Positions 12,466-50,782 of a stretch of DNA of 53,568 nt are shown here, piece by piece; the first letter of the stretch is position 1; each line of letters starts with the position of its first letter. The position numbers were made by a program, and so were the translations under genes. Under the pieces are notes generated by a model. It searched no databases. It was not told the origin of the DNA and worked only from the letters and a program-made list of their open reading frames with translations. The stretch is from positions 1 through 53,568 of IMG/VR virus record IMGVR_UViG_3300048925_000677. One strand, 5' to 3'. The stretch is from a virus (taxonomy: Duplodnaviria; Heunggongvirae; Uroviricota; Caudoviricetes).

Positions 12466-13293
12466 CTAGCCCAGCCAGCACTTCCGGGTCAGGTCGTGGA
12501 TAGCGTCGTTGGAGGTACCCTTGCCGTCCCATAGACCGGTTCTGGATGCCATTGGCATCTCCCACCACAAGGCCGCTTCTTCGCGCACCTGGCGGGTCTT
12601 GAGTCCCGTGGCAACTCCGGCGTAGTGCAGCCAAAAATCATCCGCGCGAGGGCATATACCCATGAAGGCGTCACCCTTTTCTCGCAGCGCGTGTTGGATG
12701 ACCGGTGGATAGGCAACCCCAGACACGCCCGTGGCGAGATGCAACTCCGACGGTTCCATGGTGGCGCAGATGGGCCACGACGCATACGGACCCTCTGAGC
12801 GCACCCTGGCGCGGTAAGCCGTGATTTGATCATCCCGATGTGCCGATAGAAGCTCTTCTAGCCATGTGGGTGGGTAGTAGGTGTCGTCATCGGCCGTCAC
12901 AAGGGTAGCGGGAGCGCAGTTTTGGACATAGGGAAAGTACTTCTTGTGTGGCCCATAGTCTTTACACAGGACCACTTCCAAGCCGCGCTTGCGCAATCTG
13001 TACAACTGGGGGCTGTCGAAAATCTCATCCACCCACAAGATCATCCGGTTGGGTCGCACCGTCCCGTTGGCGATGGTCTCAACAGCTTTCCATGCCGTGT
13101 TGAGGCGTTTGCCGTAACTCGTCATGGACACGACGGCGGGAGCATCACCCGTAACCGGTTCGTACGATGTGAGATTTTGACGCCACAGCCTTGGCCCGAG
13201 GGCGATGTACTCGGCGAGCGCTGCCGCCTTCCCTGATACTGAGGCGGGGAAGGCGCCGTCGTTGCGACTGTCGATCACGGCAACAATATACAC
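12466..13293 (-). CDS. GT-A fold glycosyltransferase (moron-like, reverse orientation)
   Basis: VVSMTSYGKRL, DYGPHKK, VTADDD (DxD), TGVSGVAYPP, ADDFWL. Confidence 0.85.
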   Translation of the reverse strand: MYIVAVIDSRNDGAFPASVSGKAAALAEYIALGPRLWRQNLTSYEPVTGDAPAVVSMTSYGKRLNTAWKAVETIANGTVRPNRMILWVDEIFDSPQLYRLRKRGLEVVLCKDYGPHKKYFPYVQNCAPATLVTADDDTYYPPTWLEELLSAHRDDQITAYRARVRSEGPYASWPICATMEPSELHLATGVSGVAYPPVIQHALREKGDAFMGICPRADDFWLHYAGVATGLKTRQVREEAALWWEMPMASRTGLWDGKGTSNDAIHDLTRKCWLG

Positions 13294-38144: not shown

Positions 38145-38702
38145 CTACTTGTGAAATGCGAGGTAGGCGATCAGTCCGCGAAGCTTCTCGACGCTGTCGT
38201 TGACGCCGCCAAGAGCGACATTGCATCCGTTGCAGAGCAGCGATCTAACGCATTTGCCGCACGACTTCTGGCCGGGGCAGCACGCGTGGTCGTGATCGAC
38301 GTCGAGGCTGCGCCTATCGGGCCCGCTAGAGCAGGTCGGATTTGCGCATACGCCGCCTTGCTGTTCGAGCATGGCGATGTAATCCGCTTCGGTGATCCGA
38401 TACTTGCTCTTCAGATAGTCGTTGCGGCGCTGTGATTTTCGATACCCTGACCCGCGCGGGGAAGCCGCGTACTGGCGCTGCCGATCCTTGATGCGGTCAC
38501 TATTGGCTTGGTAGTAACTTTTCTGATACAGAGAGCTGCACGCTTTACACCAGTGCTGCAGGCCATCGTGCGTGCTGCGGTTCTTGCCGAACTGATCTAG
38601 CGATTTTTCGGTCTTACACTTTGTGCATGCCTTCAGTGGATGTCTACACTTTCCCAATAGGGCTGCAGGGCTGTGGAGCCCGCGGTGGTGGACACAGCCC
38701 AT
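38145..38702 (-). CDS. endonuclease VII-like HNH homing endonuclease
   Basis: CTKC..K....F..N N-terminus; Y..ML..QGGVC..C..L.VDHDH.....VR.LLC..CN..LG. Confidence 0.88.
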   Translation of the reverse strand: MGCVHHRGLHSPAALLGKCRHPLKACTKCKTEKSLDQFGKNRSTHDGLQHWCKACSSLYQKSYYQANSDRIKDRQRQYAASPRGSGYRKSQRRNDYLKSKYRITEADYIAMLEQQGGVCANPTCSSGPDRRSLDVDHDHACCPGQKSCGKCVRSLLCNGCNVALGGVNDSVEKLRGLIAYLAFHK

Positions 38703-38753: not shown

Positions 38754-39758
38754 TTACGACAGGCCGATGACCGATGCCGTGAACGGCGAGGTCGAGGTGA
38801 TCGCGTTCGTGCCGGTGGCCTTGACGCGGAACACCCAGTTGGCCGAGGACGTCACGCCACTGACACGGATCGTGATCGTCGTGGTGCCGGTGACGGCAAC
38901 GACGGTTGCGGTCGTCCACGTAGCACCGCCGTCGTTGGACTTCTCGACGACGTAGGTGAGTTCGCTCGACTTCGAGGTCGGCTTGGCGAACACGACATCC
39001 GCGAGCTGGCCGACCACCGCGGTGGCGACAGGCGGCGCGGAGAACACCGGGCGGCCCTGCAGACCACGCCAAGCGGCGCCGTCGCGGAACCGCAGAGCGG
39101 GGGTGCCCACGTACGGGCAGAGCAGCGAGCCAAGCTCGATCTCCATGGTGTCCGGATCGGCCTTGTTCCACGACGAGTTGCCGCGGTTGCGCAGCGACAT
39201 GCGCGGGAAGACCTCAGCGACGAAGTTCTCGCCGTCGAAGCCCAGCGCGATCACCTGGCGTTCCAGCAGCGGGGTCTCCGCCGGCTTGCGAATGCCGTAG
39301 CCCGCCTTGCCGACATCCTGCAGCGACTGCAGCGGCAGGTCGTAACGCAGAGCGTCGACCAACGGGATGCCCTCCAGGGCCTTGATGGTGATGCCGTCGT
39401 TATCGGCGGTGACGTCGAACCGGACCGCGCGCTTGGACTGCGCGATCATGGTTTCGGCAACGTCGGTGTTGTAGGTCATTTCGAGGCCGTCCTCATGGAG
39501 GGCGCCGAGGTGATAGAACCCGAGGTTCGGTGCCTCACCGAGCAGGTCGGTGCGCAGCTTGCCGTCGAGCGCGAACGGCGAGAAGTCACCATCGTCGTTC
39601 AGGCCGACCGCGGGGTCCGCGAGGTTGTGGACCGTCCCGTCCGGATTCAGGTAGTCCCGAATCAGCAGATCGGTCACGATCATCTTGCGGACAGTCAGCG
39701 GGTTGATGCCCTGCTGCAGGATCTGCCCGTAAGTACCGCCGGAGTTGGGCAATGCCAT
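38754..39758 (-). CDS. major tail protein with C-terminal FN3/Ig-like domain
   Basis: LGALHEDG, IAQS..AVR.DV motifs; C-terminal Y.VEKS.DGG.TW...W.FRVKA. Confidence 0.88.
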   Translation of the reverse strand: MALPNSGGTYGQILQQGINPLTVRKMIVTDLLIRDYLNPDGTVHNLADPAVGLNDDGDFSPFALDGKLRTDLLGEAPNLGFYHLGALHEDGLEMTYNTDVAETMIAQSKRAVRFDVTADNDGITIKALEGIPLVDALRYDLPLQSLQDVGKAGYGIRKPAETPLLERQVIALGFDGENFVAEVFPRMSLRNRGNSSWNKADPDTMEIELGSLLCPYVGTPALRFRDGAAWRGLQGRPVFSAPPVATAVVGQLADVVFAKPTSKSSELTYVVEKSNDGGATWTTATVVAVTGTTTITIRVSGVTSSANWVFRVKATGTNAITSTSPFTASVIGLS

Positions 39759-41651: not shown

Positions 41652-42208
41652 GCGACCGGAATCAATCGATACTGGTACAGGACGGACTCTTGCATCGGTT
41701 GCTTGGCGATACCCCAGCTACGGTCTGTGATACCAGACGCGCGCAGGGAGACATCGTCGACCTCGATGCCAGTAAGCTGACCACTGAGGCCCGTGCCGGC
41801 ACTGGCCACGGTGCGGTCAATGAGCGCCAGCACCTCCTCGCGGAAGGCCATTGCCTCGGCCGCGGCGAAGCCATGCTCCACCGTGACCACCACGCGCCCA
41901 CGCCAGAAACCGTCCTTGCGGTACAGGATTCCGGGTTCGTTGGTGTACTGCTCGATCTCGTCGACCGGAACAGTCACGCCATCTTCGGTGCACGAGGTAA
42001 TGGAATCGACCTTCAGCGTCGGGATGACGATGTAAGGCCATCCGCCGCCGTCGACCACGAAGGTGTCCGACCGGACCGGCGAAACGTGCCAGCCGCAATA
42101 CCGGCGGACCTTGTCGAGGGATGTGGCCAGTAGGCGCGCGTTCTCGACAGGGTCGATCAGCTCGGGGTTGTAGGCCACGACGTCGGCAAGTTCAAGCTCT
42201 TCAGCCAT
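41648..42208 (-). CDS. head-to-tail adaptor
   Basis: VRRYCGWHVSPV, VEHGF motifs. Confidence 0.85.
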   Translation of the reverse strand: MAEELELADVVAYNPELIDPVENARLLATSLDKVRRYCGWHVSPVRSDTFVVDGGGWPYIVIPTLKVDSITSCTEDGVTVPVDEIEQYTNEPGILYRKDGFWRGRVVVTVEHGFAAAEAMAFREEVLALIDRTVASAGTGLSGQLTGIEVDDVSLRASGITDRSWGIAKQPMQESVLYQYRLIPVA

Positions 42209-42225
42209 GACGGCCCCCCATTCGG

Positions 42226-42498
42226 TTAGTCGGTGGTTTCCTTGCGGGGACGGCCGCGGCCACGCTTGACGGGCTCTGCGGCGGTCTCCAGGGGCGGCTC
42301 GCTCACGGCGGTCTCGGTCGGTGCCGCGGCAACCTTCGTTTCCGGCGCCGGCGCGGAGACAGCCTTCTCGAAGTCCTGCAATGAAGCCCGCACCTGGCGG
42401 GCCCTATCCTCGGCGTCGACGGCCTCGTAGACCGCCAACTCCTGTAAGAGGGCCGCGCGGTAATCGGCCGCGAAGTCCCTCACGTTCTGGTCGGACAT
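42226..42498 (-). CDS. small protein with AT-hook-like C-terminus
   Basis: KRGRGRPRK; GTAGGAG SD before ATG 42498. Confidence 0.7.
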   Translation of the reverse strand: MSDQNVRDFAADYRAALLQELAVYEAVDAEDRARQVRASLQDFEKAVSAPAPETKVAAAPTETAVSEPPLETAAEPVKRGRGRPRKETTD

Positions 42499-42505
42499 GT
42501 TTCTC

Positions 42506-43201
42506 CTACCGAGGGTCACTCTCGACCCTCTCGAAATCGTTGATCATGGGGCTGTAGATGTCTTTCAGCCGCTTTCTGTCGTCAGTTCTCAGGTGCGTGC
42601 GGTGCTCCAGGCGGACATCCCACAAAGGCTCAGCGGGAAGCGCTTTCGGGCCGGCAAGGAATTCACGCTTGCCGTCGACCGGGGCGGTGACGACGAAGTG
42701 CGCCTGCTCGATCCGAATGCCGGGGATGGCGCGGAACAGGCACCGCAGCGGATGCTGGGCGTAGCTGGAGGCTTCGCGCTGCCAAAGCATCACCTCGGCG
42801 GCGTGTGCGTCAGTGGCCGCCAGTCGAGACTTGGTGTCCGCGGGTACATCGGAGATGATCTCATCGGCGTCAACCCGGAAAAACCAGTCGCCCGGCTGCG
42901 CAAACGTCATGCCGAGCTGGAACATGAAGTCCCGCTTGGCAACTTCGCCACCCCACTCGTCCCCCCACCAGACCTTGCGCGACTGATGGATGGTGCAACC
43001 GATGCCGGCGCCCGCGGCCGTGCGCAGGATCGCGTCAGCCTGGTCGGTGCCGCTCGCCGGCTGCATCATGGCACCCGGGAAGCCCGCATACGGGCCGTCA
43101 ACGGCGATGATGTGGTCGGCCAGTCGCGCGGTAGCGGCAACGCACTCGGCGAGCCAGGTGGGGCTCTCCTCGTACCAGTTCAGCAGTGCAATTATGGCCA
43201 T
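42506..43201 (-). CDS. glycosyltransferase family 2-like protein
   Basis: IALLNWYEE..WL..C, IIAVDG, WFFRVDADE (DxD). Confidence 0.8.
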   Translation of the reverse strand: MAIIALLNWYEESPTWLAECVAATARLADHIIAVDGPYAGFPGAMMQPASGTDQADAILRTAAGAGIGCTIHQSRKVWWGDEWGGEVAKRDFMFQLGMTFAQPGDWFFRVDADEIISDVPADTKSRLAATDAHAAEVMLWQREASSYAQHPLRCLFRAIPGIRIEQAHFVVTAPVDGKREFLAGPKALPAEPLWDVRLEHRTHLRTDDRKRLKDIYSPMINDFERVESDPR

Positions 43202-43419
43202 GCGGCCACCCGAAGACACACGGTCGGGAGGATGCGGGGCGGGTCGGTGAGCGTTCGTGCGTATTCGATACCGGTGATCCGGTATCTACCGCCGTCAATC
43301 TCGACGACCTCTCCAATGTTCAAAACCGCATCTTCATAGGGAAGCTGGCGAGTGTCCACCGCGGCGACGCGGCCCCGGCCGGTGATTGTGAACCAATCGT
43401 CGGCTGCTAGAAATTTCAC
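43192..43419 (-). CDS. stand-alone EF-Tu domain II-like beta-barrel protein
   Basis: DDWFTITGRGRV..LNIGEVVEIDG..ITGIEYARTLTD versus EF-Tu EDVFTITGRGTV..I.V.EEVEIVG..VTGVEMFRKLLD. Confidence 0.7.
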   Translation of the reverse strand: MKFLAADDWFTITGRGRVAAVDTRQLPYEDAVLNIGEVVEIDGGRYRITGIEYARTLTDPPRILPTVCLRVAAWP

Positions 43420-43607
43420 GCTGGCCTCACCCTCCCTACGGGTACGCACACCGTCTGGTGGGGCGCCAAACGCTCAGTGCCGCTGCCGTAGTCGGCCTCG
43501 GGGTCGATAGCCACGGTGCAACGCGCCCAGCCGTGGTCGATCCGCTCGACGTGGCCACGAAGGTCTTCGCCATCGAAGTCGACAATGACGTCGTCGCCGG
43601 GATTCAT
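43416..43607 (-). CDS. small SH3-like hypothetical protein
   Basis: PGDDVIVDFDG....GHVERI..GW pattern; ATGA overlaps. Confidence 0.65.
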   Translation of the reverse strand: MNPGDDVIVDFDGEDLRGHVERIDHGWARCTVAIDPEADYGSGTERLAPHQTVCVPVGRVRPA

Positions 43608-44827
43608 CGTCGCCCCAATCGCTTAACGGTCACGCCATCCCGATCCGGAATGACGCCGAAGGGGTCGACCACAACCGAGCCCTCGGGGAACTCCAGCGAG
43701 CGATACCGCTCATTGTTGGTGGCCAAGAAGTACACAGCCTTGTACATGTAATCCACATCGTTGACGTGCAGGAACTGCTCGCCAGACTGGCGGAGGATAT
43801 CGGCCATCAGCATTGCCGCGCTGCCGGTTTCGATGTCGGTCTCGGGCTTGAAGGCCGTTCCGAGCACGATGAGTGGCAGATCATGCTTCTCGGCGTAGTA
43901 GGAGGCGACCTCGGCGTGCCAGGCCTCATACTCCTGGCGGGCGTGCATCAGCGCGTCCCAGATGTTGAAGGACATGTCAACCTCTTCGGCGAGCCAGGAC
44001 AGCGCGATATTGTCGCGCGGGTGGCAGCCGCCACCGTCGGACATGCCGGCATCCATGTAGCGGCTCGACAGTAGCCGGCGGTCGGCGAGATCCCAGGCTG
44101 CCTTCATGTCGTCGAAATTCATGCCCATGCGCTCGCACATCTCGCCCCAGCAGTTGGCGATGACCGTCTTGGCGGTGATCCACGTGTTGTACGAGACCTT
44201 GATTCCCTCGGCCGTCGTCACGCCGGTGCGGATGCACGGGGCATCATTGATCGTGGCGTAGAACTCCTCCAGGAGATCCGCGGCCTCGTCGCTGCAGACG
44301 CCGATCAGGTTGAACTCCGGGTGTAGGTAGTCCTGCAGGACGGTGCCCATCGCGATGAACTGCGGGGTGTAGACATAGTCGACGAAATCGTTGAGTAGCG
44401 GGGCGATCTCGCGGGAGAACGTGCCGGGCAGGCAGGTGGAGATGACCGCGACAGTCTTGCGCACGCCCAGCCGCTCGCACGCCGCGGCGACGGCGGCCAC
44501 GCCCTCCTTCAGAAAGGTGTAGTCGAAATCCTCTCTGGCGTCGGGCATGATCGTGGCGCCCTCAAATTCCGGCGCGTGCGGGGTCTGGATGGCGACGAAG
44601 ATGATGTCCGAGTCGGCAACTACCTCGTCGACGGTGTCGTGCCACTGGATGTCATGATTGTCGAGCAGCGGCTGCAGCCCCTCCTCGCGGAACGGGATGA
44701 AGCGCGACTCCAGGTAAGTCTTGACGTCAGGATTGGCGTCGGTTCCGCAGACGGTGTGGCCGCGGCGTTCGATGGCTAGTGCGACCGGCAAGCCGAGCTT
44801 GCCCAGTCCGACATGACCAATTCTCAA
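43604..44827 (-). CDS. UDP-glucose/GDP-mannose dehydrogenase family protein
   Basis: GLGKLG Rossmann motif, IFVAIQTP, STCLPG, GGGCHPRD catalytic Cys, LG.AFKP.TD. Confidence 0.93.
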   Translation of the reverse strand: MRIGHVGLGKLGLPVALAIERRGHTVCGTDANPDVKTYLESRFIPFREEGLQPLLDNHDIQWHDTVDEVVADSDIIFVAIQTPHAPEFEGATIMPDAREDFDYTFLKEGVAAVAAACERLGVRKTVAVISTCLPGTFSREIAPLLNDFVDYVYTPQFIAMGTVLQDYLHPEFNLIGVCSDEAADLLEEFYATINDAPCIRTGVTTAEGIKVSYNTWITAKTVIANCWGEMCERMGMNFDDMKAAWDLADRRLLSSRYMDAGMSDGGGCHPRDNIALSWLAEEVDMSFNIWDALMHARQEYEAWHAEVASYYAEKHDLPLIVLGTAFKPETDIETGSAAMLMADILRQSGEQFLHVNDVDYMYKAVYFLATNNERYRSLEFPEGSVVVDPFGVIPDRDGVTVKRLGRR

Positions 44828-44845
44828 AGTGTTCCCCTTTGGTGG

Positions 44846-45403
44846 TTAGTCGAGTAGTGCTGCGATGTTTCGCTCGGATGTGTTGCCGCCGTTGCAGTGC
44901 ACTGCGGCAAATGCTTCAGCGAGCGCCTCTGGCGCGTTGAAATGGCCGTCCTTAAACGAGTAGCGGGCCAACTCGTCGTAGTCGACGGCGTCCGTCCATG
45001 TGAGATCGATCAGCGCGCGCGACGGTGCGTCACCGCGATTAGCGTCGAGGATGTGCGCGGCCTCGTGGTAGGTGACGAACTCCATTGGCGTGCAGGACAC
45101 GGTCCGCGGGTGGAAGTGACTCGCCTCGTCGTTGGCCATGGACTTCTCGAACGCGGCGCGATCCGCCAGAAATGTCGAGTTGAAGGTGATTACCCCACCG
45201 CCGGCCTGTGCGTAGATGTCATTGAGTGGCTCGGAGTCGATCTTGACGTCCCGCAACTCCGGGTATTTCACGGCGAGTTTGTCTATGGCGCCGTCAATCT
45301 CGGCGGAGAGCGTCGGGTCGGCGCCCTGACTGAGCTTGGTCTCGCCACATGCGGCAAGGGTGGCAACGATAACCGCGGCGGAGGCGAGATATTTGATGAG
45401 AAT
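44846..45403 (-). CDS. lipoprotein with HExxH zincin motif; apparent ATT start
   Basis: In-frame extension upstream of track start encodes ILIKYLASAAVIVATLAA-C lipobox; AGGAG SD 8 nt before ATT; YHEAAH..EALAE. Confidence 0.75.
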   Translation of the reverse strand: MLIKYLASAAVIVATLAACGETKLSQGADPTLSAEIDGAIDKLAVKYPELRDVKIDSEPLNDIYAQAGGGVITFNSTFLADRAAFEKSMANDEASHFHPRTVSCTPMEFVTYHEAAHILDANRGDAPSRALIDLTWTDAVDYDELARYSFKDGHFNAPEALAEAFAAVHCNGGNTSERNIAALLD

Positions 45404-45414
45404 GGGCTGTTCTC

Positions 45415-45960
45415 CTAGCGCCCGTATGTCAAGCTGTTCCCCGGGCTGAAGAAGTAGTGGTAGAGCGTCTGATCGATGTAATGCTCGGTCTTTGGCGAGA
45501 CCTGGTCGGCCCAGCGCTTGTCCTCCCCATAGCCGCCGTTAAAACGTCCCTGTCGGGCGATCTCGGTGCGAATCGGGTTGAGGTGGCTGACATTCCGGTA
45601 GTAACCGTTAGCGTCGTCGGACCACTCGTCGTACTCAAGCGAGTGATAGGTGGGCTTCTGGCGCGCTCCGTCGATGTAGAGCTGAAGCTGGAAGCCGATA
45701 TAGTCGACACCGTCGAGAAGCGGGTAGATGGCGTCGACGTAGTTGCCGGCGACCATGTCGTCATCGTCGATGAAGTTGAAGTACTCCCCCGAGGCGTTGT
45801 CCAGGCACCACTGCCGTTTCTCGGCGACGGTTCCCGGCATGTTGCAGGTCATCAGCTCGATGTCCGAGCGAGCCTGAATCTGTGGAGTGAGGGTGTTCAT
45901 GAGCCGGGCGTACTCGTGGCGGCGCTCAGGGACTGTGAGGACCGCTATCGTCCACTTCAC
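45415..45960 (-). CDS. glycosyltransferase family 2
   Basis: WTIAVLT, KRQWCLDNASGEYFNFIDDDD. Confidence 0.88.
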   Translation of the reverse strand: MKWTIAVLTVPERRHEYARLMNTLTPQIQARSDIELMTCNMPGTVAEKRQWCLDNASGEYFNFIDDDDMVAGNYVDAIYPLLDGVDYIGFQLQLYIDGARQKPTYHSLEYDEWSDDANGYYRNVSHLNPIRTEIARQGRFNGGYGEDKRWADQVSPKTEHYIDQTLYHYFFSPGNSLTYGR

Positions 45961-46649
45961 TGCATGACCTCCTGCAGTTTCGCCGCGGTGTCGCGAATGA
46001 GCGCCTGCACTTCGGCGCCGTAGTACAGCTCGTCCGGCCGGCACTCCTGGTGGCGGGCCAGGCGCTCGCTGGTGTTCTGATCGATCTCCGCCTTGCCCAC
46101 GATGTAGTGCATGTGCTCGGTGTAGATGTCGATCTCCAGGTGGCGGCCAATGAGTTTGGAGACGTCGTTAAGGAACGTGTCGTTGAAATCGCTGACGAAC
46201 AGCGGCGGGAAAAGGAACCCGGCGGTCTCGACCCACTTGCGATGGATGAAGCCGTGCGTCCCAAAGTTGTTGCCGTCCTGGTATCCGTCGCGCCCGAAGG
46301 CGAACAGGATCTTGTCCGGGTAGGCATCGAACGTCTCGCGCACAACGTCGTCCCAGCCGGGCGTGCGAAACACGATGTCGTCGCCGCAGTGCATGATGAT
46401 GTCCGCGCGCGACGCGTCGAAGCACAGATTCCACATCGCCGAGAGGTTCACGAGATTATCGCGCTCTCGGGGGCCACGGACCTGCACCCATTTGATGTCG
46501 ATCTGCAGGTCGTCGTATGAATGGTCATCAGAGTCGATGTACGTCACGATCCGGATGTTTTCCGGGTGCGACGCCGTGGCGTTGATGGAATCAACCAAGC
46601 GGCTCAACTGATTCGGCCGCTGGCGGGTTGGGAGGAGGAGGTCAATCAA
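45957..46649 (-). CDS. glycosyltransferase family 2-like
   Basis: LLLPTRQRP, YIDSDD, MHCGDDIVFRTPGWD, DT(F)LND; TTG start overlapping upstream stop. Confidence 0.85.
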   Translation of the reverse strand: MIDLLLPTRQRPNQLSRLVDSINATASHPENIRIVTYIDSDDHSYDDLQIDIKWVQVRGPRERDNLVNLSAMWNLCFDASRADIIMHCGDDIVFRTPGWDDVVRETFDAYPDKILFAFGRDGYQDGNNFGTHGFIHRKWVETAGFLFPPLFVSDFNDTFLNDVSKLIGRHLEIDIYTEHMHYIVGKAEIDQNTSERLARHQECRPDELYYGAEVQALIRDTAAKLQEVMQ

Positions 46650-46776
46650 GGACGGGGACCGCCTTGATGCGCATTTCAGCCTGCTCTTCAGCGGGGCGGT
46701 CAGCCATCTCCATGCAGAGGCGCTGGAAGCGCTCGGCGACGGCAACGGGCTCCCCGCGGTCGGTGAGGACATGCAT
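46642..46776 (-). CDS. 44-aa hypothetical protein
   Basis: GGAGG SD; MHVLTDRGEPVAVAERFQRLCMEMADRPAEEQAEMRIKAVPVLD; TTGATTGA coupling to GT. Confidence 0.6.
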   Translation of the reverse strand: MHVLTDRGEPVAVAERFQRLCMEMADRPAEEQAEMRIKAVPVLD

Positions 46777-46790
46777 GAAACCTCCAATTT

Positions 46791-46840
46791 GTCTCAATAG
46801 TGAGACATTTGTTGCATTGGCGAGATTCGGGACTTAGATT
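46791..46840 (+). promoter_or_regulatory. palindromic site GTCTCA-N4-TGAGAC plus SigA-type promoter for paralog cassette
   Basis: GTCTCAatagTGAGAC at 46791-46806; TTGCAT (46812-17), 17 bp, TAGATT (46835-40). Confidence 0.65.
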
Positions 46841-46874
46841 GGGGACACAGGCCACACAATCCCAGGAGATGAAC

Positions 46875-47228
46875 ATGACCGTTTTGCAGGACTTGATCGA
46901 TTCGCGCGACCTTCTGATCCGGGGTGGGTACACCGCCCACTATCTCAGGATGGACGGGCGCCACTGCGCGGTCGGCGCGGTGCTCGATGCCACCGGCAAC
47001 GAGGACATCCACGCCTTCATCTACAACACGATGAACGAGCGGGGCGCCGCGGTGATTCGTGCGCTGAATGCCACCCTCCCCGAGGATTTCCAGCCACATC
47101 TCAATTCTCAGCACCTGGGGGACATCGCGTCTCGGGTGGCTGGATACAACAACCGGAGGGGCGAGGAGGCGGTGATCGCAATGTTCAATTCCGCCATCGC
47201 CCGCGAAGAGACGCTCGTCTCGGCCTAA
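46875..47228 (+). CDS. DUF6197-like protein, paralog 1
   Basis: MTVLQDLIDSRDLL..G....HCAVGAV...YNN; AGGAG SD. Confidence 0.75.
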   Translation: MTVLQDLIDSRDLLIRGGYTAHYLRMDGRHCAVGAVLDATGNEDIHAFIYNTMNERGAAVIRALNATLPEDFQPHLNSQHLGDIASRVAGYNNRRGEEAVIAMFNSAIAREETLVSA

Positions 47229-47253
47229 CCCCAACCGCCAAAAGGAGATTCAC

Positions 47254-47652
47254 ATGACCGTTTTGCAAGATCTGATCGACAGCCGCGACCTCATCATTCG
47301 CGACGGGTGGTCGCTCGGCCGGCTGCGCGGCGCGAACGGAAGTCACTGCGCCATGGGCGCGGTGCTCGATACCACCGGCAACGAGCACATCAACCACTCG
47401 CTCGCATACGACACGATGAACGAACGCGGCCAAGCGGTGACCGCCGCGCTCTACGAGGCAATTCCCGCGGAGAAGCGGGCCTCGATCATGGCCGAATGGG
47501 GCGATGAGATCGCAGAACTCCACCCGGATTGCGTCCGAGGGTGCACCGTGGGTGACTACAACAACTACTTCGGCGAGTCGACGGTGATCGAGATGTTCAA
47601 CGTCGCTATCGCCCAGCAGCGGGCCGCCGCCTCCACTTCATACAAGCGCTGA
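47254..47652 (+). CDS. DUF6197-like protein, paralog 2
   Basis: Same motifs (HCAMGAV, YNN); AAGGAG SD. Confidence 0.75.
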   Translation: MTVLQDLIDSRDLIIRDGWSLGRLRGANGSHCAMGAVLDTTGNEHINHSLAYDTMNERGQAVTAALYEAIPAEKRASIMAEWGDEIAELHPDCVRGCTVGDYNNYFGESTVIEMFNVAIAQQRAAASTSYKR

Positions 47653-47666
47653 AGGAGATATCGAAC

Positions 47667-48053
47667 ATGACACTCTTGCAGGATCTGGTCGCCAGTCGCG
47701 ACCTACTCGTCAAGGATGGATGGGTGGCGCACAAGTTGCGCGACTCCGAAACGGGCGCGCGTTGCGCCGTCGGTGCGGTGCTCGACGCCACCGGGAATGA
47801 AGACCTCGACGCGTTCACCTACGGAGAGATGAACGAGCGCGGCGTCGCGGCGGTGGATGCCCTCTATAACCTCCTACCGGTGGGGTGGAAGGGGTATCGC
47901 GAAGCATCGTTGACCACGAAGGCGATCTGCATCGCCGACTACAACAACGGACGGGGCGAGCAGCCCACCGTTAAGCTCTTCGAGAACGCCATCGACGCCC
48001 TCGCGCCGGCAGCCGTGGGCTGCGGCGTTCGGCAAATAGGCGTGTTCCGTTGA
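47667..48053 (+). CDS. DUF6197-like protein, paralog 3
   Basis: RCAVGAV, YNN; AAGGAG SD. Confidence 0.75.
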   Translation: MTLLQDLVASRDLLVKDGWVAHKLRDSETGARCAVGAVLDATGNEDLDAFTYGEMNERGVAAVDALYNLLPVGWKGYREASLTTKAICIADYNNGRGEQPTVKLFENAIDALAPAAVGCGVRQIGVFR

Positions 48054-48089
48054 CAACGGAACGGGTGAATTAACCGAACAGTGACCACC

Positions 48090-48127
48090 GAAAGGCCGAG
48101 CACCCGCTATATGGTGCTCGGCCTTTC
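48090..48127. terminator. bidirectional terminator between capsid gene and paralog cassette
   Basis: 15-bp IR GAAAGGCCGAGCACC/GGTGCTCGGCCTTTC. Confidence 0.75.
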
Positions 48128-48159
48128 ATGGTTACTGAGATGCGCTTGCGCGCAACGCC

Positions 48160-49539
48160 TTACGCGAAGGTCGGCGCGGTGAGAGCGGTACCGGTGATTT
48201 CGGCAATGCTCTCCGAGTGGCGCTCAGCGGTGAACGCCAAGAAGCCGTAGACCTGCAGCAGGATCGTCAGGTTGTCGGCCCGCGTCTGGTCGAAGGTCCG
48301 GGTACGGATGCCCGATTCGAACAGGAGCAGGTCGCTCGCGCGCAGGATGTGGACGACATCCTGGTTGGTGCCGGCACCGAGGTTGGTCGGCAGCAGCGGG
48401 TCGGTGTACACGGGCAGGCCGTGCAGGTTGCCCACGTAGCCGGCGGTGATGACGCCGCCGTGCGTACCGATCAGCGGGGTGCTCGCGTTGGACGAGCCCG
48501 AGATCAGCGGCACGTCGTTGGCGGTGAACACCGCCTGCAGCTGAGACCAGCGCCGCGGGTGCATGACGATGACCTCGGCCGGCAGGGTGCGCTGAGTACC
48601 CACGCGCTGGATCGCGTCAGCGATCTTCGCGTAGAGGGTCTTGGCCTTCGACAGCTCGTTACCGGCGTCGGTCGCGGTGATCGTGGTGATGCCAGAGGCA
48701 TTCCGGACGCCCTTGACCTGGCCCGAGGTATTCGAGCCGTTGATGACCTGCAGGTTGAGCTTGTTCGCGTAATCCGCCGAGAGATCCCGGAAGATGATCT
48801 CGTCGAAGTTCAGCGGCGACTGCTCCAGCGCCTGGATGGACAGGGCCTGCGCACCCGCGATGGTCTTGACCTGCGCCGAGACGAAGGTGTCGGTCAGGTC
48901 GACCTCGGTGATCGCGGTGTTGTCCGCGGTCTGGATGCCGGTCGAGGTGCCGGTCGCGATCTTCGGGATCGAGATCGAGTCCGTGCCGCCGGGCAGCGGC
49001 TCAGACGGCGCCAGGTTGGCGTAGACCCGACCCGGGCGGGACAGCTCGATGAAGCGGTCCATCAGCCATACGGGCGGAACCAGGTAGCCGCCGGTGCCGT
49101 CGGTCCGGTTCAGGGCGCGGACCTCATTGGCGTGCGCATTCAGGCGCGCCTGCACCTGATCGTCACCCATGTTGAAGGCGCGGGCCAGCATGTCCTGGAC
49201 GTAGGACTTGCCGTTACCCTTCTCATAGGTGCGGTGCTCGTTGGTGACGGTCACGGTCGTGGTGGGACGGGTCACGTTGCGGACCTCCTCGGTGTGGCGG
49301 CCGGCGCGCGCAGCCTCGGCTTCCAGGTCGGTGATCTGGCTGGACAGGTCGTCGACCCGGTCCTGCTTGGCCTTGACGCTGGCGGTAGCCGCGCGGAAGG
49401 CGGTGTCCTCGTCCTCGGTCAGGTCGGCGTCGCCGCGGGCCTCGACAGCGTCGAGAACGGCGTCACGGGCGGTGATTTCGGCGTCGATCTCGGCCAGGAG
49501 GGCGGCGCGAGCTTCGATCAGCTTCTGCAAACGATCCAC
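48160..49539 (-). CDS. major capsid protein, HK97 fold, with N-terminal delta domain
   Basis: Coiled-coil N-terminus, GGYLVPP, VKTIAG, ING, LHGLPVY.D; AAAGGAG SD. Confidence 0.95.
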   Translation of the reverse strand: MDRLQKLIEARAALLAEIDAEITARDAVLDAVEARGDADLTEDEDTAFRAATASVKAKQDRVDDLSSQITDLEAEAARAGRHTEEVRNVTRPTTTVTVTNEHRTYEKGNGKSYVQDMLARAFNMGDDQVQARLNAHANEVRALNRTDGTGGYLVPPVWLMDRFIELSRPGRVYANLAPSEPLPGGTDSISIPKIATGTSTGIQTADNTAITEVDLTDTFVSAQVKTIAGAQALSIQALEQSPLNFDEIIFRDLSADYANKLNLQVINGSNTSGQVKGVRNASGITTITATDAGNELSKAKTLYAKIADAIQRVGTQRTLPAEVIVMHPRRWSQLQAVFTANDVPLISGSSNASTPLIGTHGGVITAGYVGNLHGLPVYTDPLLPTNLGAGTNQDVVHILRASDLLLFESGIRTRTFDQTRADNLTILLQVYGFLAFTAERHSESIAEITGTALTAPTFA

Positions 49540-49720
49540 TAGGGATCTCCTTTCGGATTTTGGGCACGAATAGGCCCGGGCACTGGGTCATTGGGGAGCC
49601 CCGCATGTGCCATGACGGGGTCGCGCCCTCCCCCAGGTGCTTTAGGAGGACACTTCAAACGGCCCCCAGTGCCAGGGAGCAATTCGCGAAAGAACAAGCG
49701 AGGGAATGACCCTCGGGGGC

Positions 49721-50782
49721 TTAGCGCTCAGTTAGGGCGCGAGCGAGGCGCAGGCTCATGCCGCGCTTCGGTGCTTCAGGCTCCTTGGCGACGGGCGCCG
49801 GGATGAGTTCGAGCTTTTCGAGCATCTCGATGAGTTTCGGCGCGCGTTCGTCGTTCGCGTCGACGCCGAAGTGCTCCCGTAGGGCGGCTTCGATCTCGGG
49901 ACTAGCCTCGGATTCGACCGTTTCCGACTGTGCGCGTTCGGCATTCAGCCACGTGAGCACGTCGGCACGCCAAACAGCCTCGGCGGTGAGCCATTCGTAG
50001 GTGCGAATAGTCTCGTCGGCCTGGCCTTCGAATTCGCGGACGTCATCGGCAGCCGGGTCACCGGTCTTGCCGGCCACCGGCTGTGCATCGCGGACGGCAG
50101 TGAGACGCTCCTGTGCGACCTTGAGATCCTTGACGGCATCTTCGGAGCGGACCTCGGCCAATTCGGTCTCGTCGCATTCGGCGAGATATCGCACGGCATC
50201 CGCCGCGGACCGTACGCCAATCGAGGTGTCCGGGTTGGCGCCGAAGTTCACGATGCTGACGTCACCCTTGTGCAGGGAGACCTCGGTGATGGTGCGGTAC
50301 GAGTGGTTGTCGTCGTCGTAACCCTCGGCCGCCCGCCACTCCTGGGCTTTTACCCGGAACGCGAAGGACATTTCGTCCATGTCGCCGCGCTCCATCTTGA
50401 CGAAGATGCCCATCGAGTCGGGATCGCGCTTGTCAAGCGTCGCAACGACCTTCAGACCCTTCTCGTCAGCCTCCAGCACGCAGGTACCCGACTTAGTGCG
50501 GGCCAGCGGCGTGCCGGCGTGGTTGATCAAGAAGTGCAGATCAGGCTTCTCGCGGAGCGTCTTGTCAAATGCGTTGGGGTCGATGCGCTCGATGTAGCCG
50601 TAGCCGTTGGCCGGCCCGCCGTACATCTCGTACTCTTCGAACGTCGAGGCGTAACCCTCAACGACAAAGAGGTTCTCATCCTCTGCGACGTCCCGATGCT
50701 CGATGCGATCCATCGGGATCGCGCGCCACTCCGGAGAGTCGGTGATATTTACTGGACGCGCGCGGCGAGTCAGTAGATCCAT
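49721..50782 (-). CDS. HK97 family prohead protease
   Basis: GYASTF, E.IDP.AF, LINH, GL.V.A, EMSFAF, DVSIV.F.AN. Confidence 0.93.
   Translation of the reverse strand: MDLLTRRARPVNITDSPEWRAIPMDRIEHRDVAEDENLFVVEGYASTFEEYEMYGGPANGYGYIERIDPNAFDKTLREKPDLHFLINHAGTPLARTKSGTCVLEADEKGLKVVATLDKRDPDSMGIFVKMERGDMDEMSFAFRVKAQEWRAAEGYDDDNHSYRTITEVSLHKGDVSIVNFGANPDTSIGVRSAADAVRYLAECDETELAEVRSEDAVKDLKVAQERLTAVRDAQPVAGKTGDPAADDVREFEGQADETIRTYEWLTAEAVWRADVLTWLNAERAQSETVESEASPEIEAALREHFGVDANDERAPKLIEMLEKLELIPAPVAKEPEAPKRGMSLRLARALTER

What the first reader, a model, noticed from the sequence alone, without database searches (positions are those of the whole stretch)
42506..46776. Glycan-synthesis island with its own nucleotide-sugar dehydrogenase inside the virion operon
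Seen: between capsid and head-tail adaptor lie three GT-A glycosyltransferases, a UDP-glucose/GDP-mannose dehydrogenase with intact catalytic Cys, a lipoprotein zincin and small ORFs, co-oriented with late genes and mostly stop/start-coupled. Established: some mycobacteriophages (e.g. Che8) glycosylate capsid/tail subunits using phage-encoded GTs; this dehydrogenase family makes uronic-acid donors. Inference: this phage may build an acidic, uronic-acid-containing virion glycan with its own donor supply, or an envelope-modification system given the lipoprotein. Ser/Thr-rich capsid and major-tail C-termini are candidate acceptors.
Basis: partly seen in the sequence, partly recalled or inferred. 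Interest (0 to 1): 0.8.

Follow-up and report, generated by a model that had tools for sequence, protein, structure and literature searches.

The report
Phage sugar-coating cassette with own dehydrogenase
An uncultured relative of the Cluster J mycobacteriophages carries, between its capsid and neck genes, that group's already-described sugar-transferase cassette. This version adds an unusual sugar-oxidising enzyme, so the phage probably coats its own particle with an acidic sugar, though nobody has tested this.

Summary
On the minus strand at 42506-46776 lie nine tightly coupled genes: a 44-aa ORF, GT1, GT2, a zincin, a 407-aa nucleotide-sugar dehydrogenase (DH), two small ORFs and GT3, running into the head-tail connector gene.

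The island is not new in kind. The window is a fragment of an uncultured Cluster J (Omegavirus) relative. Pope et al. 2013 already described an 8-10 gene glycosyltransferase/methyltransferase/zincin insertion at this position. The scan has also flagged similar virion-module sugar cassettes on many other DNAs.

What is new:
- **Module swap.** A GT1+GT2+DH module replaces the methyltransferase+GT+GT set of cultured Cluster J phages. Those phages keep only a ~95-aa relic of the DH C-terminal domain.
- **Portability.** The same module recurs beside head genes in at least four unrelated phage backbones and in Mycolicibacterium prophages.
- **Divergent DH.** It keeps Cys, Lys, Asn and Asp but lacks the otherwise invariant Pro-Glu glutamate, which is the base for thioester hydrolysis. 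It falls below NCBIfam's family cut-off and folds like GDP-mannose dehydrogenase, so its substrate and product are unassigned.

Virion glycosylation with a phage-made oxidised sugar donor is the best reading (about 0.5). It is untested. The verdict is a new variant of a known kind, of moderate interest.

The parts
46642..46776 (-). sORF44, a 44-aa leader ORF of the cassette. Its stop overlaps the GT1 start.
   Evidence: An ATG lies 4 nt after GGAGG. The amino-acid sequence is conserved in this frame in L006, while the overlapping extended GT1 frame is not. No Pfam or PHROG match.
45957..46649 (-). GT1, a 230-aa soluble GT-A glycosyltransferase (phrog_14945). It is the constant partner of the DH.
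   Evidence: PHROG match E 2e-29. AF2 pLDDT 93.8 with a GT-A fold, Foldseek probability 1.00. The family alignment has invariant D39/D42 and G89-D90-D91. A homologue lies next to the DH in 7 of the 8 phage contexts and in 18 of 80 cellular loci.
45415..45960 (-). GT2, a 181-aa glycosyltransferase (phrog_14775), homologous to the N-terminal GT domain of Che8 gp108.
   Evidence: PHROG match E 1e-37. BLASTP to Che8 gp108 residues 11-191: 30% identity, E 8e-20. Che8 gp108 also matches phrog_14775. DDD motif. GTGA start/stop overlap with GT1.
44846..45403 (-). Zincin-type metallopeptidase with signal peptide and lipobox. Homologue of Cluster J 'zinc-finger protease' (Omega gp18 family).
   Evidence: phrog_7153 E 9e-39. 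HEAAH at residue 113 and lipobox LAAC. Identity is 37% to MiaZeal gp18 and 50% to the L006 homologue, and the homology extends upstream of the first canonical start at 45271. An ATT codon lies behind an AGGAG.
43604..44827 (-). DH, a 407-aa nucleotide-sugar dehydrogenase-like enzyme of a divergent subfamily (signature TPQFIAMG ... DGGGCHPRDN).
   Evidence: PF03721 and PF00984. TIGR03026 scores 153.8 bits, below its 189.8 cut-off. Best PDB sequence match is GDP-mannose DH 1mfz, E 5e-33. AF2 pLDDT 92; TM 0.86 to 1mfz against about 0.53 to UGDHs. Invariant T131, K210, N214, C268, H269 and D272; Q156 replaces the invariant Glu.
43416..43607 (-). s63, a 63-aa conserved small protein (phrog_1693) of unknown role.
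   Evidence: PHROG match E 6e-27. Identity is 86% in L006 and 71% in WXIN. ATGA overlap with the DH stop. The atlas search gave no usable lead.
43192..43419 (-). s75, a 75-aa small ORF of unknown role.
   Evidence: GTGA overlap with the s63 stop. No Pfam or PHROG match. Atlas hits are only unnamed actinobacterial or viral clusters, all below 0.9. Not found in L006 or L008.
42506..43201 (-). GT3, a 231-aa glycosyltransferase (phrog_7009). It is the core GT shared with cultured Cluster J phages, directly upstream of the connector gene.
   Evidence: PHROG match E 6e-104. Identity is 63% to MiaZeal gp21, 64% to WXIN, 84% to L006 and 46% to L008. DAD motif. Weak PF13704 hit.
42226..42498 (-). Head-tail connector gene, coupled to the GT3 stop. 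It marks the downstream end of the cassette.
   Evidence: phrog_6852 E 6e-10. Its ATG lies 8 nt after the GT3 TAG.
48160..49539 (-). Major capsid protein. Upstream boundary of the region and a candidate glycan acceptor (C-terminus ...EITGTALTAPTFA).
   Evidence: phrog_2263 E 3e-79. Identity to Cluster J capsids is 68-74%. The C-terminal tail is conserved in WXIN, L006 and L008.
38754..39758 (-). Major tail protein, a candidate glycan acceptor. The last 20 residues are 45% Ser/Thr and the protein ends ...VIGLS.
   Evidence: phrog_476 E 1e-77. Sequence and composition. Che8 gp6 and gp11 both end in G-S.

Best explanation
The island is a variant of the glycosylation cassette that Cluster J (Omegavirus) mycobacteriophages carry between the capsid and head-tail connector genes.

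Proposed mechanism:
- The cassette is translated with the late virion genes.
- Its soluble enzymes act in the cytoplasm on newly made virion proteins, most likely the capsid and/or tail-tube subunits. This target is inferred.
- GT3, shared by all Omega-like phages, is the lineage's core transferase.
- GT1+GT2+DH form a swappable three-gene module. The DH oxidises C6 of a nucleotide sugar through Cys268, giving a uronic-acid-type donor. Its constant neighbour GT1 then adds that sugar to the glycan, and GT2, a relative of the Che8 gp108 GT domain, extends it. All three steps are inferred.
- Cultured Cluster J phages hold a methyltransferase plus two other GTs in the place of this module and keep only a dead remnant of the DH.
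- The role of the exported zincin and of the small ORFs is unknown.
For: **Identity of the phage.** The capsid is 68-74% identical to Cluster J capsids. The window is part of a 71.9-kb IMG/VR contig rated 62% complete.

**Synteny with Cluster J.** MiaZeal and WXIN have the order capsid, MT/GTs, zincin, DH relic, GT3, connector. Pope 2013 describes this insertion.

**Coupling.** Genes overlap start to stop throughout, and 8 nt separate the GT3 stop from the connector start. GC3 of 0.66-0.86 in the cassette genes is close to that of the neighbouring virion genes (0.77-0.90).

**Soluble enzymes.** No TM segments are found in the GTs or the DH.

**Link to proven systems.**
- GT2 matches the Che8 gp108 GT domain at E 8e-20.
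- MiaZeal gp16 and gp17 share PHROG families with Corndog gp36 and gp37.
- Che8, Corndog and Myrna virion proteins are reported to be glycosylated (PMC12363180).

**Module behaviour.**
- GT1+GT2+DH co-occur in L006, L008/L019, L012, L101 and L102/L103.
- GT1+DH co-occur in L005 and L013.
- Every one of these contexts is inside or next to a head/virion module, across at least four backbones.
- A GT1 homologue lies directly upstream of the DH in 18 of 80 cellular loci.

**DH chemistry.** Sixteen of the 18 family-invariant residues are present, including Cys, Lys, Asn and Asp.

**Neighbours that act on carboxylates or uronates.** NadE-like or SDR genes sit next to the DH in other loci, which fits an acid product.
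Against: - No glycoprotein data exist for any Cluster J-type phage that I could find. The primary paper, Freeman 2023, was not readable.
- The window has no homologue of the GTs called essential in Che8 and Corndog (phrog_854), nor of phrog_1721.
- The DH lacks the invariant Glu. In human UGDH this residue is the base for thioester hydrolysis, and the E161Q mutant lowers kcat 610-fold (PMC3265891). The DH also probably lacks Asn287 and scores below NCBIfam's family cut-off. A uronic-acid product is therefore not assured.
- The substrate cannot be assigned. The fold and index 219 are GDP-mannose-DH-like, index 359 (Ile) is UDPGDH-like, and other group-specific positions match none of the groups.
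- The zincin family has signal-peptide-like N-termini, and here a lipobox, pointing to some action outside the cytoplasm.
- Cellular homologues of GT1 and the DH sit in ordinary cell glycan clusters.
- A hairpin and three head-on genes separate the cassette from the capsid gene, so co-transcription with the capsid is not guaranteed.
Confidence: 0.5

Rival explanations
1. The cassette modifies the host envelope. The GTs and DH would alter a mycobacterial cell-wall glycan or glycolipid during infection or lysogeny, for example for superinfection exclusion, to prevent re-adsorption, or to aid release. The exported zincin would act on the same envelope.
For: - The zincin homologues carry signal-peptide-like N-termini, and the window copy has a lipobox.
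- Cellular GT1 and DH homologues lie in cell glycan clusters alongside GT1-family glycosyltransferases, methyltransferases and transporters.
- DH-bearing relatives exist as prophages.
- Pope 2013 left open whether the targets are viral or host.
Against: - The GTs and DH have no TM segment or secretion signal.
- No flippase, polymerase or lipid-carrier GT lies in the island.
- The genes are coupled to essential late structural genes rather than forming an independently expressed moron.
- The module recurs specifically inside head modules of unrelated phages.
Confidence: 0.2
2. The DH subfamily does not release a uronic acid. Without the hydrolytic Glu, it would either stop at another oxidation state or pass its Cys-bound acyl intermediate to a nucleophile other than water. 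GT1 would then receive a different modified sugar.
For: - Glu141 is invariant in 229 NDP-sugar dehydrogenases (PMC4794789). It is Q here and F in 68 of 80 cellular relatives.
- E161Q in human UGDH traps the thioester intermediate.
- Covarying changes occur around the Cys: CHPRD instead of C[LF][PQ]KD, and M160 in place of Glu145.
- The TIGR03026 score is below cut-off.
Against: - All residues for the two oxidation steps are kept.
- The invariant His269 next to Cys268 could take over as base. This is inference.
- NadE-like amidotransferase-type and SDR neighbours in other loci suggest a free carboxylate product.
- No biochemical data exist for the subfamily.
Confidence: 0.12
3. The cassette glycosylates phage DNA, a hypermodification that evades restriction, as in phages whose modified DNA bases carry sugars.
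For: - Some phages with a UDP-glucose DH, such as Bacillus phage SP-15, have sugar-bearing hypermodified DNA. This is from my own knowledge; the SP-15 DH was seen.
- Glycosyltransferases in phages are often discussed in that role (PMC10955285).
Against: - No thymidylate-synthase-like hydroxymethylase was found in the 72-kb contig (the contig is incomplete).
- The location is among head and tail genes rather than replication genes.
- GT2 is homologous to part of a protein-glycosylating system.
- The SP-15 DH is a canonical NPEF/CFPKD enzyme from a different branch.
Confidence: 0.04

Closest known systems
Cluster J (Omegavirus) 'non-structural interruption' between capsid and head-tail connector genes (Pope et al. 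2013, PMC3706429)
   Same: - Same genomic position.
- Same backbone: capsid 52-74% identical and major tail protein 72-75% identical.
- Same core genes: the GT3 orthologue (63-64%), the zincin (37%) and the s63 homologue in WXIN (71%).
   Different: - The window has GT1, GT2 and a full-length DH where cultured members have an O-methyltransferase plus phrog_4447 and phrog_1721 GTs, and in some a kinase.
- Cultured members retain only a ~95-aa DH C-terminal remnant lacking the FKPETD/Lys motif.
- The window has three reversed DUF6197 genes inserted after the capsid gene.
Mycobacteriophage virion O-glycosylation systems (Che8 gp108-110, Corndog gp35-38, Myrna; Freeman et al. 2023, known to me through PMC12363180 and from memory of the abstract)
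   Same: - Phage-encoded soluble GT-A enzymes expressed with or near virion genes.
- GT2 is homologous to the Che8 gp108 GT domain.
- In Corndog the cassette also lies inside the head module.
   Different: - No homologue of Che8 gp110/Corndog gp38 (phrog_854) or of gp109/gp37 (phrog_1721).
- Those systems have no nucleotide-sugar dehydrogenase.
- Glycosylation of this phage's proteins has not been shown.
Nucleotide-sugar 6-dehydrogenases: P. aeruginosa GDP-mannose DH AlgD (1mfz/1mv8) and UDP-glucose DHs
   Same: - Three-domain architecture.
- GxGxxG motif, the Ser-Thr pair, Lys210, Asn214, Cys268 and Asp272.
- An AlgD-like domain arrangement, TM 0.86.
   Different: - Glu of the invariant Pro-Glu is Gln (Phe in cellular relatives). 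Glu145 is Met.
- CHPRD replaces C[LF][PQ]KD.
- Asn287 is apparently Arg.
- The specificity position 359 is Ile, not the His of GDP-mannose DH.
- The score is below the TIGR03026 cut-off.
Chlorovirus/giant-virus autonomous glycosylation with virus-encoded sugar-nucleotide enzymes, including UDP-glucose DH (reviewed in PMC4691112; mostly from my own knowledge)
   Same: The virus encodes both the glycosyltransferases and a donor-making dehydrogenase, so the glycan does not depend solely on host donor supply.
   Different: - Eukaryotic giant viruses, with no sequence relationship to this cassette tested here.
- There the capsid glycans are experimentally established.
DH + NadE-like + methyltransferase + GT clusters of cyanomyophages (Bellamy gp223-228) and Pelagibacter phage HTVC008M
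   Same: The same divergent DH subfamily (31-34% identity; IA[MQ]GT and CHPRDNIAL motifs, with no Glu), next to GT and methyltransferase genes.
   Different: - Not located between capsid and connector genes.
- Accompanied by NadE-like and carbamoyltransferase genes that the window's contig lacks.

Membership tests
Cluster J capsid-connector glycosylation/modification cassette (Pope 2013) | [quoted passage not shown] | tested here: met
   Gene order and PHROG calls. Synteny with MiaZeal and WXIN.
Cluster J capsid-connector glycosylation/modification cassette (Pope 2013) | Several glycosyltransferases plus the Omega gp18-type zincin | tested here: met
   Three GTs. Zincin is 37% identical to MiaZeal gp18 and carries HEAAH.
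Cluster J capsid-connector glycosylation/modification cassette (Pope 2013) | SAM-dependent methyltransferase in the cassette | tested here: not met
   No methyltransferase hit in any island ORF. The MiaZeal gp15 and WXIN methyltransferases have no counterpart in the window.
Mycobacteriophage virion O-glycosylation system (Che8/Corndog type) | Homologues of the GTs of the proven systems (phrog_854, phrog_1721, phrog_8858/14775, phrog_4447) | tested here: inconclusive
   Only GT2 matches (phrog_14775; 30% identity to the gp108 N-domain, E 8e-20). No phrog_854, phrog_1721 or phrog_4447 member is present.
Mycobacteriophage virion O-glycosylation system (Che8/Corndog type) | Glycans attached to capsid and tail-tube subunits | not testable with these tools
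   This needs glycostain and mass spectrometry of virions. Only C-terminal composition could be looked at.
NDP-sugar 6-dehydrogenase family (UDPGDH/GDPMDH/UDPNAMDH) | Three-domain fold with Rossmann GxGxxG | tested here: met
   PF03721 and PF00984. GLGKLG motif. AF2 model matches 1mfz at TM 0.86. The C-terminal domain is not detected by PF03720 in the window protein, but it is modelled and is homologous to relatives that do score on PF03720.
NDP-sugar 6-dehydrogenase family (UDPGDH/GDPMDH/UDPNAMDH) | Catalytic Cys, Lys, Asn and Asp (Sp C260, K204, N208, D264) | tested here: met
   C268, K210, N214 and D272 align to AlgD and are invariant in 32 relatives.
NDP-sugar 6-dehydrogenase family (UDPGDH/GDPMDH/UDPNAMDH) | Invariant Pro-Glu (Sp P140-E141; human Glu161, the base for thioester hydrolysis) | tested here: not met
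   P155-Q156 in the window. Among 80 cellular relatives the position is F in 68, Q in 4, and S, Y, A or L in the rest. The residue's role comes from PMC3265891 and its invariance from PMC4794789.
NDP-sugar 6-dehydrogenase family (UDPGDH/GDPMDH/UDPNAMDH) | Score above NCBIfam TIGR03026 (nucleotide sugar dehydrogenase) cut-off, or a match to any equivalog | tested here: not met
   153.8 bits against a cut-off of 189.8. All equivalog models score far below their cut-offs.
GDP-mannose 6-dehydrogenase (AlgD group) | Group-specific residues His217{359}, Leu126{219}, Ala263{406}, Arg122{215} (PMC4794789) | tested here: not met
   Only Leu (L133, in STCLPGT) matches. The other three positions are I217, S263 and I129 in the window (alignment, residues, table). 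The domain arrangement is nevertheless AlgD-like.
GT-A fold glycosyltransferase (GT2-like) | GT-A Rossmann-like fold with an acidic DxD-type metal/donor motif | tested here: met
   GT1: AF2 pLDDT 93.8 and Foldseek probability 1.00 to GT2-family structures. DSD, DDD and DAD motifs in GT1, GT2 and GT3. GT2 and GT3 were not folded.
Bacterial lipoprotein | Signal peptide ending in a lipobox [LVI][ASTVI][GAS]C, reached from a start codon | tested here: inconclusive
   The lipobox LAAC and a hydrophobic segment are present. No ATG, GTG or TTG precedes them; an ATT lies behind an AGGAG. Homologues start at ATG and have signal-like N-termini but no lipobox.

The most novel reading that the evidence does not exclude
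The DH represents an uncharacterised fourth branch of the nucleotide-sugar dehydrogenase superfamily. It is spread through phages, Nitrosopumilaceae, Pelagibacteraceae, CPR bacteria and others. Having lost the hydrolytic glutamate, it would perform a different reaction, for example handing the Cys-bound C6 acyl group to a nucleophile other than water, or releasing a different oxidation state. Phages would carry it with a dedicated GT-A partner as a portable module that places an unusual sugar on their virions.
Probability: 0.12. Interest if true: 0.75.

Novelty: new variant of a known kind. Interest (0 to 1): 0.45.

Why it matters
Virion glycosylation in phages was first shown in 2023 and is reported to blunt antibody recognition. 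That makes it relevant to choosing phages for therapy of Mycobacterium infections.

If this reading holds:
- Uncultured Omega-like phages and Mycolicibacterium prophages would diversify their glycan by swapping whole enzyme modules, including one that makes its own oxidised donor.
- The orphan ~95-aa ORF of some 50 sequenced Cluster J phages would be explained as a remnant of that enzyme.
- A widespread and unstudied branch of the sugar-dehydrogenase superfamily, lacking a residue considered invariant, becomes a defined biochemical target.

Tried and rejected
- **Apparent GT1-DH fusion.** I first read a 661-aa ORF in Azospirillum (L086/L087) as a Rosetta-stone link. This is rejected. The GT1-like hit is in another frame, and the ORF's N-terminus is off-frame high-GC sequence. 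The two genes are adjacent with a 4-nt overlap.
- **Complex prediction of DH with GT1.** No verdict, score 0.00. This is not evidence either way.
- **The look-up of sequencing runs.** Only DNA holders were listed, all root or rhizosphere metagenomes. No RNA holder was listed, so expression could not be examined.
- **Freeman et al. 2023.** The paper could not be read by DOI or PMC id. No accessible paper mentions glycosylated Cluster J virions or a mycobacteriophage sugar dehydrogenase.
- **Consensus promoter scan.** It found no sigma-70-like site in 42000-49800. It is too strict for mycobacterial promoters, so it is uninformative.
- **Megablast of the island against isolated phages.** It matched only about 230 bp of GT3.
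- **Atlas searches for s63 and s75.** No hit reached 0.9.
- **Second possible GT at 12466-13293.** A weak PF00535 hit got no PHROG support.
- **Other sugar enzymes in the 72-kb contig.** No epimerase, NadE or thymidylate-synthase-type gene was found. The contig is only about 62% complete.
- **Profile of GT1 against PDB sequences.** Only marginal hits, E >= 0.017.

Full report
**What the DNA is.** The window is bases 3974-57541 of a 71.9-kb IMG/VR viral contig rated 62% complete. Its virion genes lie on the minus strand in this order: terminase, portal, protease, capsid, the island, connector and adaptor genes, major tail protein, and tape measure. The capsid is 68-74% identical to capsids of Cluster J mycobacteriophages of the genus Omegavirus, including WXIN, Redno2 and Baka. 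Earlier notes on the same contig reached the same placement. The same dehydrogenase protein is recorded on a 123-kb contig, a size close to that of a whole Cluster J genome. DNA matching the island occurs in root metagenomes.

**Check of the observation.** Reading the sequence and comparing relatives refined the gene starts:

| Gene | Coordinates (minus strand) | Notes |
|---|---|---|
| sORF44 | 46642-46776 | Conserved in frame in relative L006 |
| GT1 | 45957-46649 | TTG start overlapping the sORF44 stop |
| GT2 | 45415-45960 | GTGA overlap |
| Zincin | 44846-45403 | See below |
| DH | 43604-44827 | See below |
| s63 | 43416-43607 | ATGA overlap |
| s75 | 43192-43419 | GTGA overlap |
| GT3 | 42506-43201 | |
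| Connector | 42226-42498 | Starts 8 nt after the GT3 stop |

- GC3 of 0.66-0.86 in the cassette genes is close to that of the neighbouring virion genes (0.77-0.90), so the island is not a recent foreign arrival.
- None of the GTs or the DH has a hydrophobic segment long enough for a membrane span.
- GT1 folds with pLDDT 93.8 into a GT-A fold. Foldseek gives probability 1.00 to RmlT, TarP, SpsA and K4CP.
- GT2 and GT3 rest on strong PHROG glycosyltransferase matches and DxD motifs.
- The zincin has HEAAH and a lipobox (LAAC). Its homology to relatives starts 23 codons upstream of the first canonical start codon. Either ATT 45403, which sits behind an AGGAG, is used as the start, or the start has decayed.
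- The island is not directly next to the capsid gene. A strong hairpin and three opposite-strand DUF6197 genes with their own promoter-like site lie between them. The closest relative, L006, lacks these genes.

**The island type is already known.** MiaZeal and WXIN have the same layout between the capsid and connector genes. Pope et al. [quoted passage not shown] Their list includes glycosyltransferases, methyltransferases, a kinase and the lethal-factor-like zincin, and they left open whether the targets are viral or host. GT3 (63-64% identity), the zincin (37%) and s63 (71% in WXIN) are shared with these cultured phages. This scan has also flagged comparable virion-module sugar cassettes on many other DNAs, several with distant relatives of this dehydrogenase.

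**What differs here.**
- GT1, GT2 and the first 300 residues of the DH have no counterpart in any isolated actinophage in the phage collection.
- Cultured Cluster J phages instead carry an O-methyltransferase plus GTs of phrog_4447 and phrog_1721. These are the families of Corndog gp36 and gp37.
- About 50 Mycobacterium phage records carry a ~95-aa ORF of previously unknown function (MiaZeal gp19, phrog_6896). It aligns at 35-41% identity to residues 304-403 of the DH, its C-terminal domain. The ORF lacks the 11 residues that hold the FKPETD motif and the diphosphate-binding lysine. I read it as a remnant of a full-length DH, although its order relative to s63 differs in WXIN, so the history is mosaic rather than a single deletion.
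- The full module is common in uncultured material. More than 100 protein clusters are at least 57% identical to the DH, and GT1 relatives are recorded on contigs of the same lengths.

**Phage contexts examined (8 in all).**
- GT1+GT2+DH lie between the capsid and connector genes in L006 (a 116-kb phage contig), in a prophage of Mycolicibacterium sp. S2-37 (L008/L019), and in L012, a contig carrying the DH protein recorded for Mycolicibacterium sp. BK634.
- GT1, a methyltransferase, GT2 and the DH lie just upstream of the terminase and portal genes in a 147-kb phage (L101).
- GT1, GT2, an SDR epimerase-like gene and the DH follow an SU10-type capsid gene in two phages of 41-46 kb (L102, L103).
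- GT1+DH lie among virion genes in two further lineages (L005, L013).

All 8 phage contexts examined were inside or beside a virion module. In 18 of 80 cellular or MAG loci a GT1 homologue also sits directly upstream of the DH. I first read an Azospirillum ORF as a GT1-DH fusion. Checking the frames showed it is not a fusion; the genes are adjacent with overlapping stop and start.

**The dehydrogenase.**
- It has the NAD-binding and central domains of the UDP-glucose/GDP-mannose dehydrogenase family.
- Its best PDB sequence match is P. aeruginosa GDP-mannose dehydrogenase at E 5e-33.
- The AF2 model (pLDDT 92) superposes on that structure at TM 0.86 and rmsd 4.2 Å. It superposes on every UDP-glucose dehydrogenase at only about 0.53 and rmsd about 22 Å. 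This fits the domain-swapped arrangement reported for the GDP-mannose enzyme.
- Cys268, Lys210, Asn214, Asp272, Thr131 and the GxGxxG motif are invariant in 32 relatives.
- Freas et al. 2016 list 18 residues as invariant in 229 family members. Two of them are missing here. The Glu of Pro-Glu is Gln156, and Asn287 is apparently Arg297.
- The Glu change matters. [quoted passage not shown] The E161Q mutant loses 610-fold in kcat and accumulates the covalent intermediate.
- The change is not peculiar to this phage. The subfamily motif is NP-F-FIAMGT in 68 of 80 cellular relatives, from Nitrosopumilaceae, Pelagibacteraceae, CPR bacteria, Azospirillum and Myxococcales. It also appears in cyanophage Bellamy, Pelagibacter phage HTVC008M and a jumbo phage, always together with CHPRD in place of C[LF][PQ]KD. 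The genome scan was seeded on the CHPRD motif, so only the NPFF result is independent.
- NCBIfam's general nucleotide-sugar dehydrogenase model scores it below cut-off, and no equivalog fits.
- The published group-specific positions give a mixed picture. Index 219 is Leu as in GDP-mannose DH. Index 359 is Ile, like the Leu of UDP-glucose DH and unlike the mannose-reading His. The other positions match no group.
- I therefore call it a divergent nucleotide-sugar dehydrogenase-like enzyme with unassigned substrate.
- A carboxylate product is still the most likely outcome. All residues for both oxidations are kept, an invariant His sits next to the Cys, and neighbours elsewhere include NadE-like and SDR enzymes of kinds that act on carboxylates or uronates. 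This is inference.

**Most likely mechanism.**
- *Shown:* the gene content, the coupling, the soluble nature of the enzymes, the modular inheritance, and the homology of GT2 to part of the Che8 system.
- *Inferred:* the cassette is made late with the structural proteins. GT3 is the lineage's core transferase. The DH makes an oxidised donor that GT1 uses. The acceptors are virion proteins.
- The capsid ends in a conserved ...EI(T/G)GTALTAPTF(A) tail. The major tail protein ends in a Ser/Thr-rich stretch with a terminal Ser, and Che8's capsid and tail proteins both end in Gly-Ser. These are leads, not evidence.
- From my memory of the Freeman 2023 abstract, the glycans in Che8-type phages are O-linked at the C-termini of capsid and tail-tube subunits. 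I could not read the paper.

**Rivals.**
- Host-envelope modification remains possible, at about 0.2. The zincin family looks exported, and cellular relatives of GT1 and the DH sit in ordinary glycan clusters.
- DNA glycosylation is unlikely.
- A non-canonical reaction by the DH is the most novel reading still open, at about 0.12.

**Verdict.** The finding is a new variant of a cassette known since 2013 and plausibly tied to a function shown in 2023. Three points are worth keeping: the portable GT1-GT2-DH module, the explanation of the Cluster J orphan ORF as a DH remnant, and the Glu-less dehydrogenase subfamily. Nothing here is experimentally tested. Interest is moderate (0.45).

Noticed in passing
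window 46790-48127: Three tandem DUF6197 paralogs (46875-47228, 47254-47652, 47667-48053, plus strand) are inserted head-on between the capsid terminator hairpin and the cassette. They have a promoter-like TTGCAT (46812), a 17-nt spacer, TAGATT (46835), and an 18-bp palindrome at 46790-46807. The closest relative, L006, lacks them.
   Followed up: partly
window 44846-45414: The zincin gene has no ATG, GTG or TTG before its signal peptide and lipobox. Homology to relatives begins 23 codons upstream of the first canonical start (GTG 45271). The likely initiator is ATT 45403 behind an AGGAG; otherwise the start has decayed.
   Followed up: partly
L001 8046-8351 (MiaZeal gp19); L002 10673-10957 (WXIN): The ~95-aa orphan ORF of Cluster J phages (phrog_6896, about 50 phage records) is homologous to the C-terminal domain of the window's dehydrogenase. 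It lacks the FKPETD segment that holds the diphosphate-binding lysine.
   Followed up: yes
L016 1467-4218 (Bellamy); L018; L033, L034, L040-L042, L051: A NadE-like gene lies next to this dehydrogenase subfamily in cyanomyophages, Pelagibacter phage HTVC008M and several Nitrosopumilaceae genomes. Its family amidates carboxylates by an ATP-dependent reaction. The pairing may indicate uronamide formation.
   Followed up: partly
L102 6264-7004; L103 6261-7013: A short SDR epimerase/dehydratase-like gene (phrog_540) overlaps the start of the DH in two SU10-capsid-type phages, right after GT1 and GT2 homologues.
   Followed up: no
L044 7191-11993: In a Pelagibacteraceae genome the DH subfamily sits in a small block (GT1-family glycosyltransferase, an unknown 273-aa gene, the DH, a methyltransferase) that ends at a tyrosine recombinase gene. 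The block may be a mobile islet.
   Followed up: no
window 38145-38702: An endonuclease VII/HNH-like gene sits between the major tail protein gene and the downstream tail genes. This is consistent with the free-standing homing endonucleases described for Cluster J.
   Followed up: no
window 12466-13293 (minus strand): A weak PF00535 (GT2) hit, E 1e-3, falls in a 275-aa ORF outside the island. PHROGs gave no support, so it is probably not a glycosyltransferase.
   Followed up: partly
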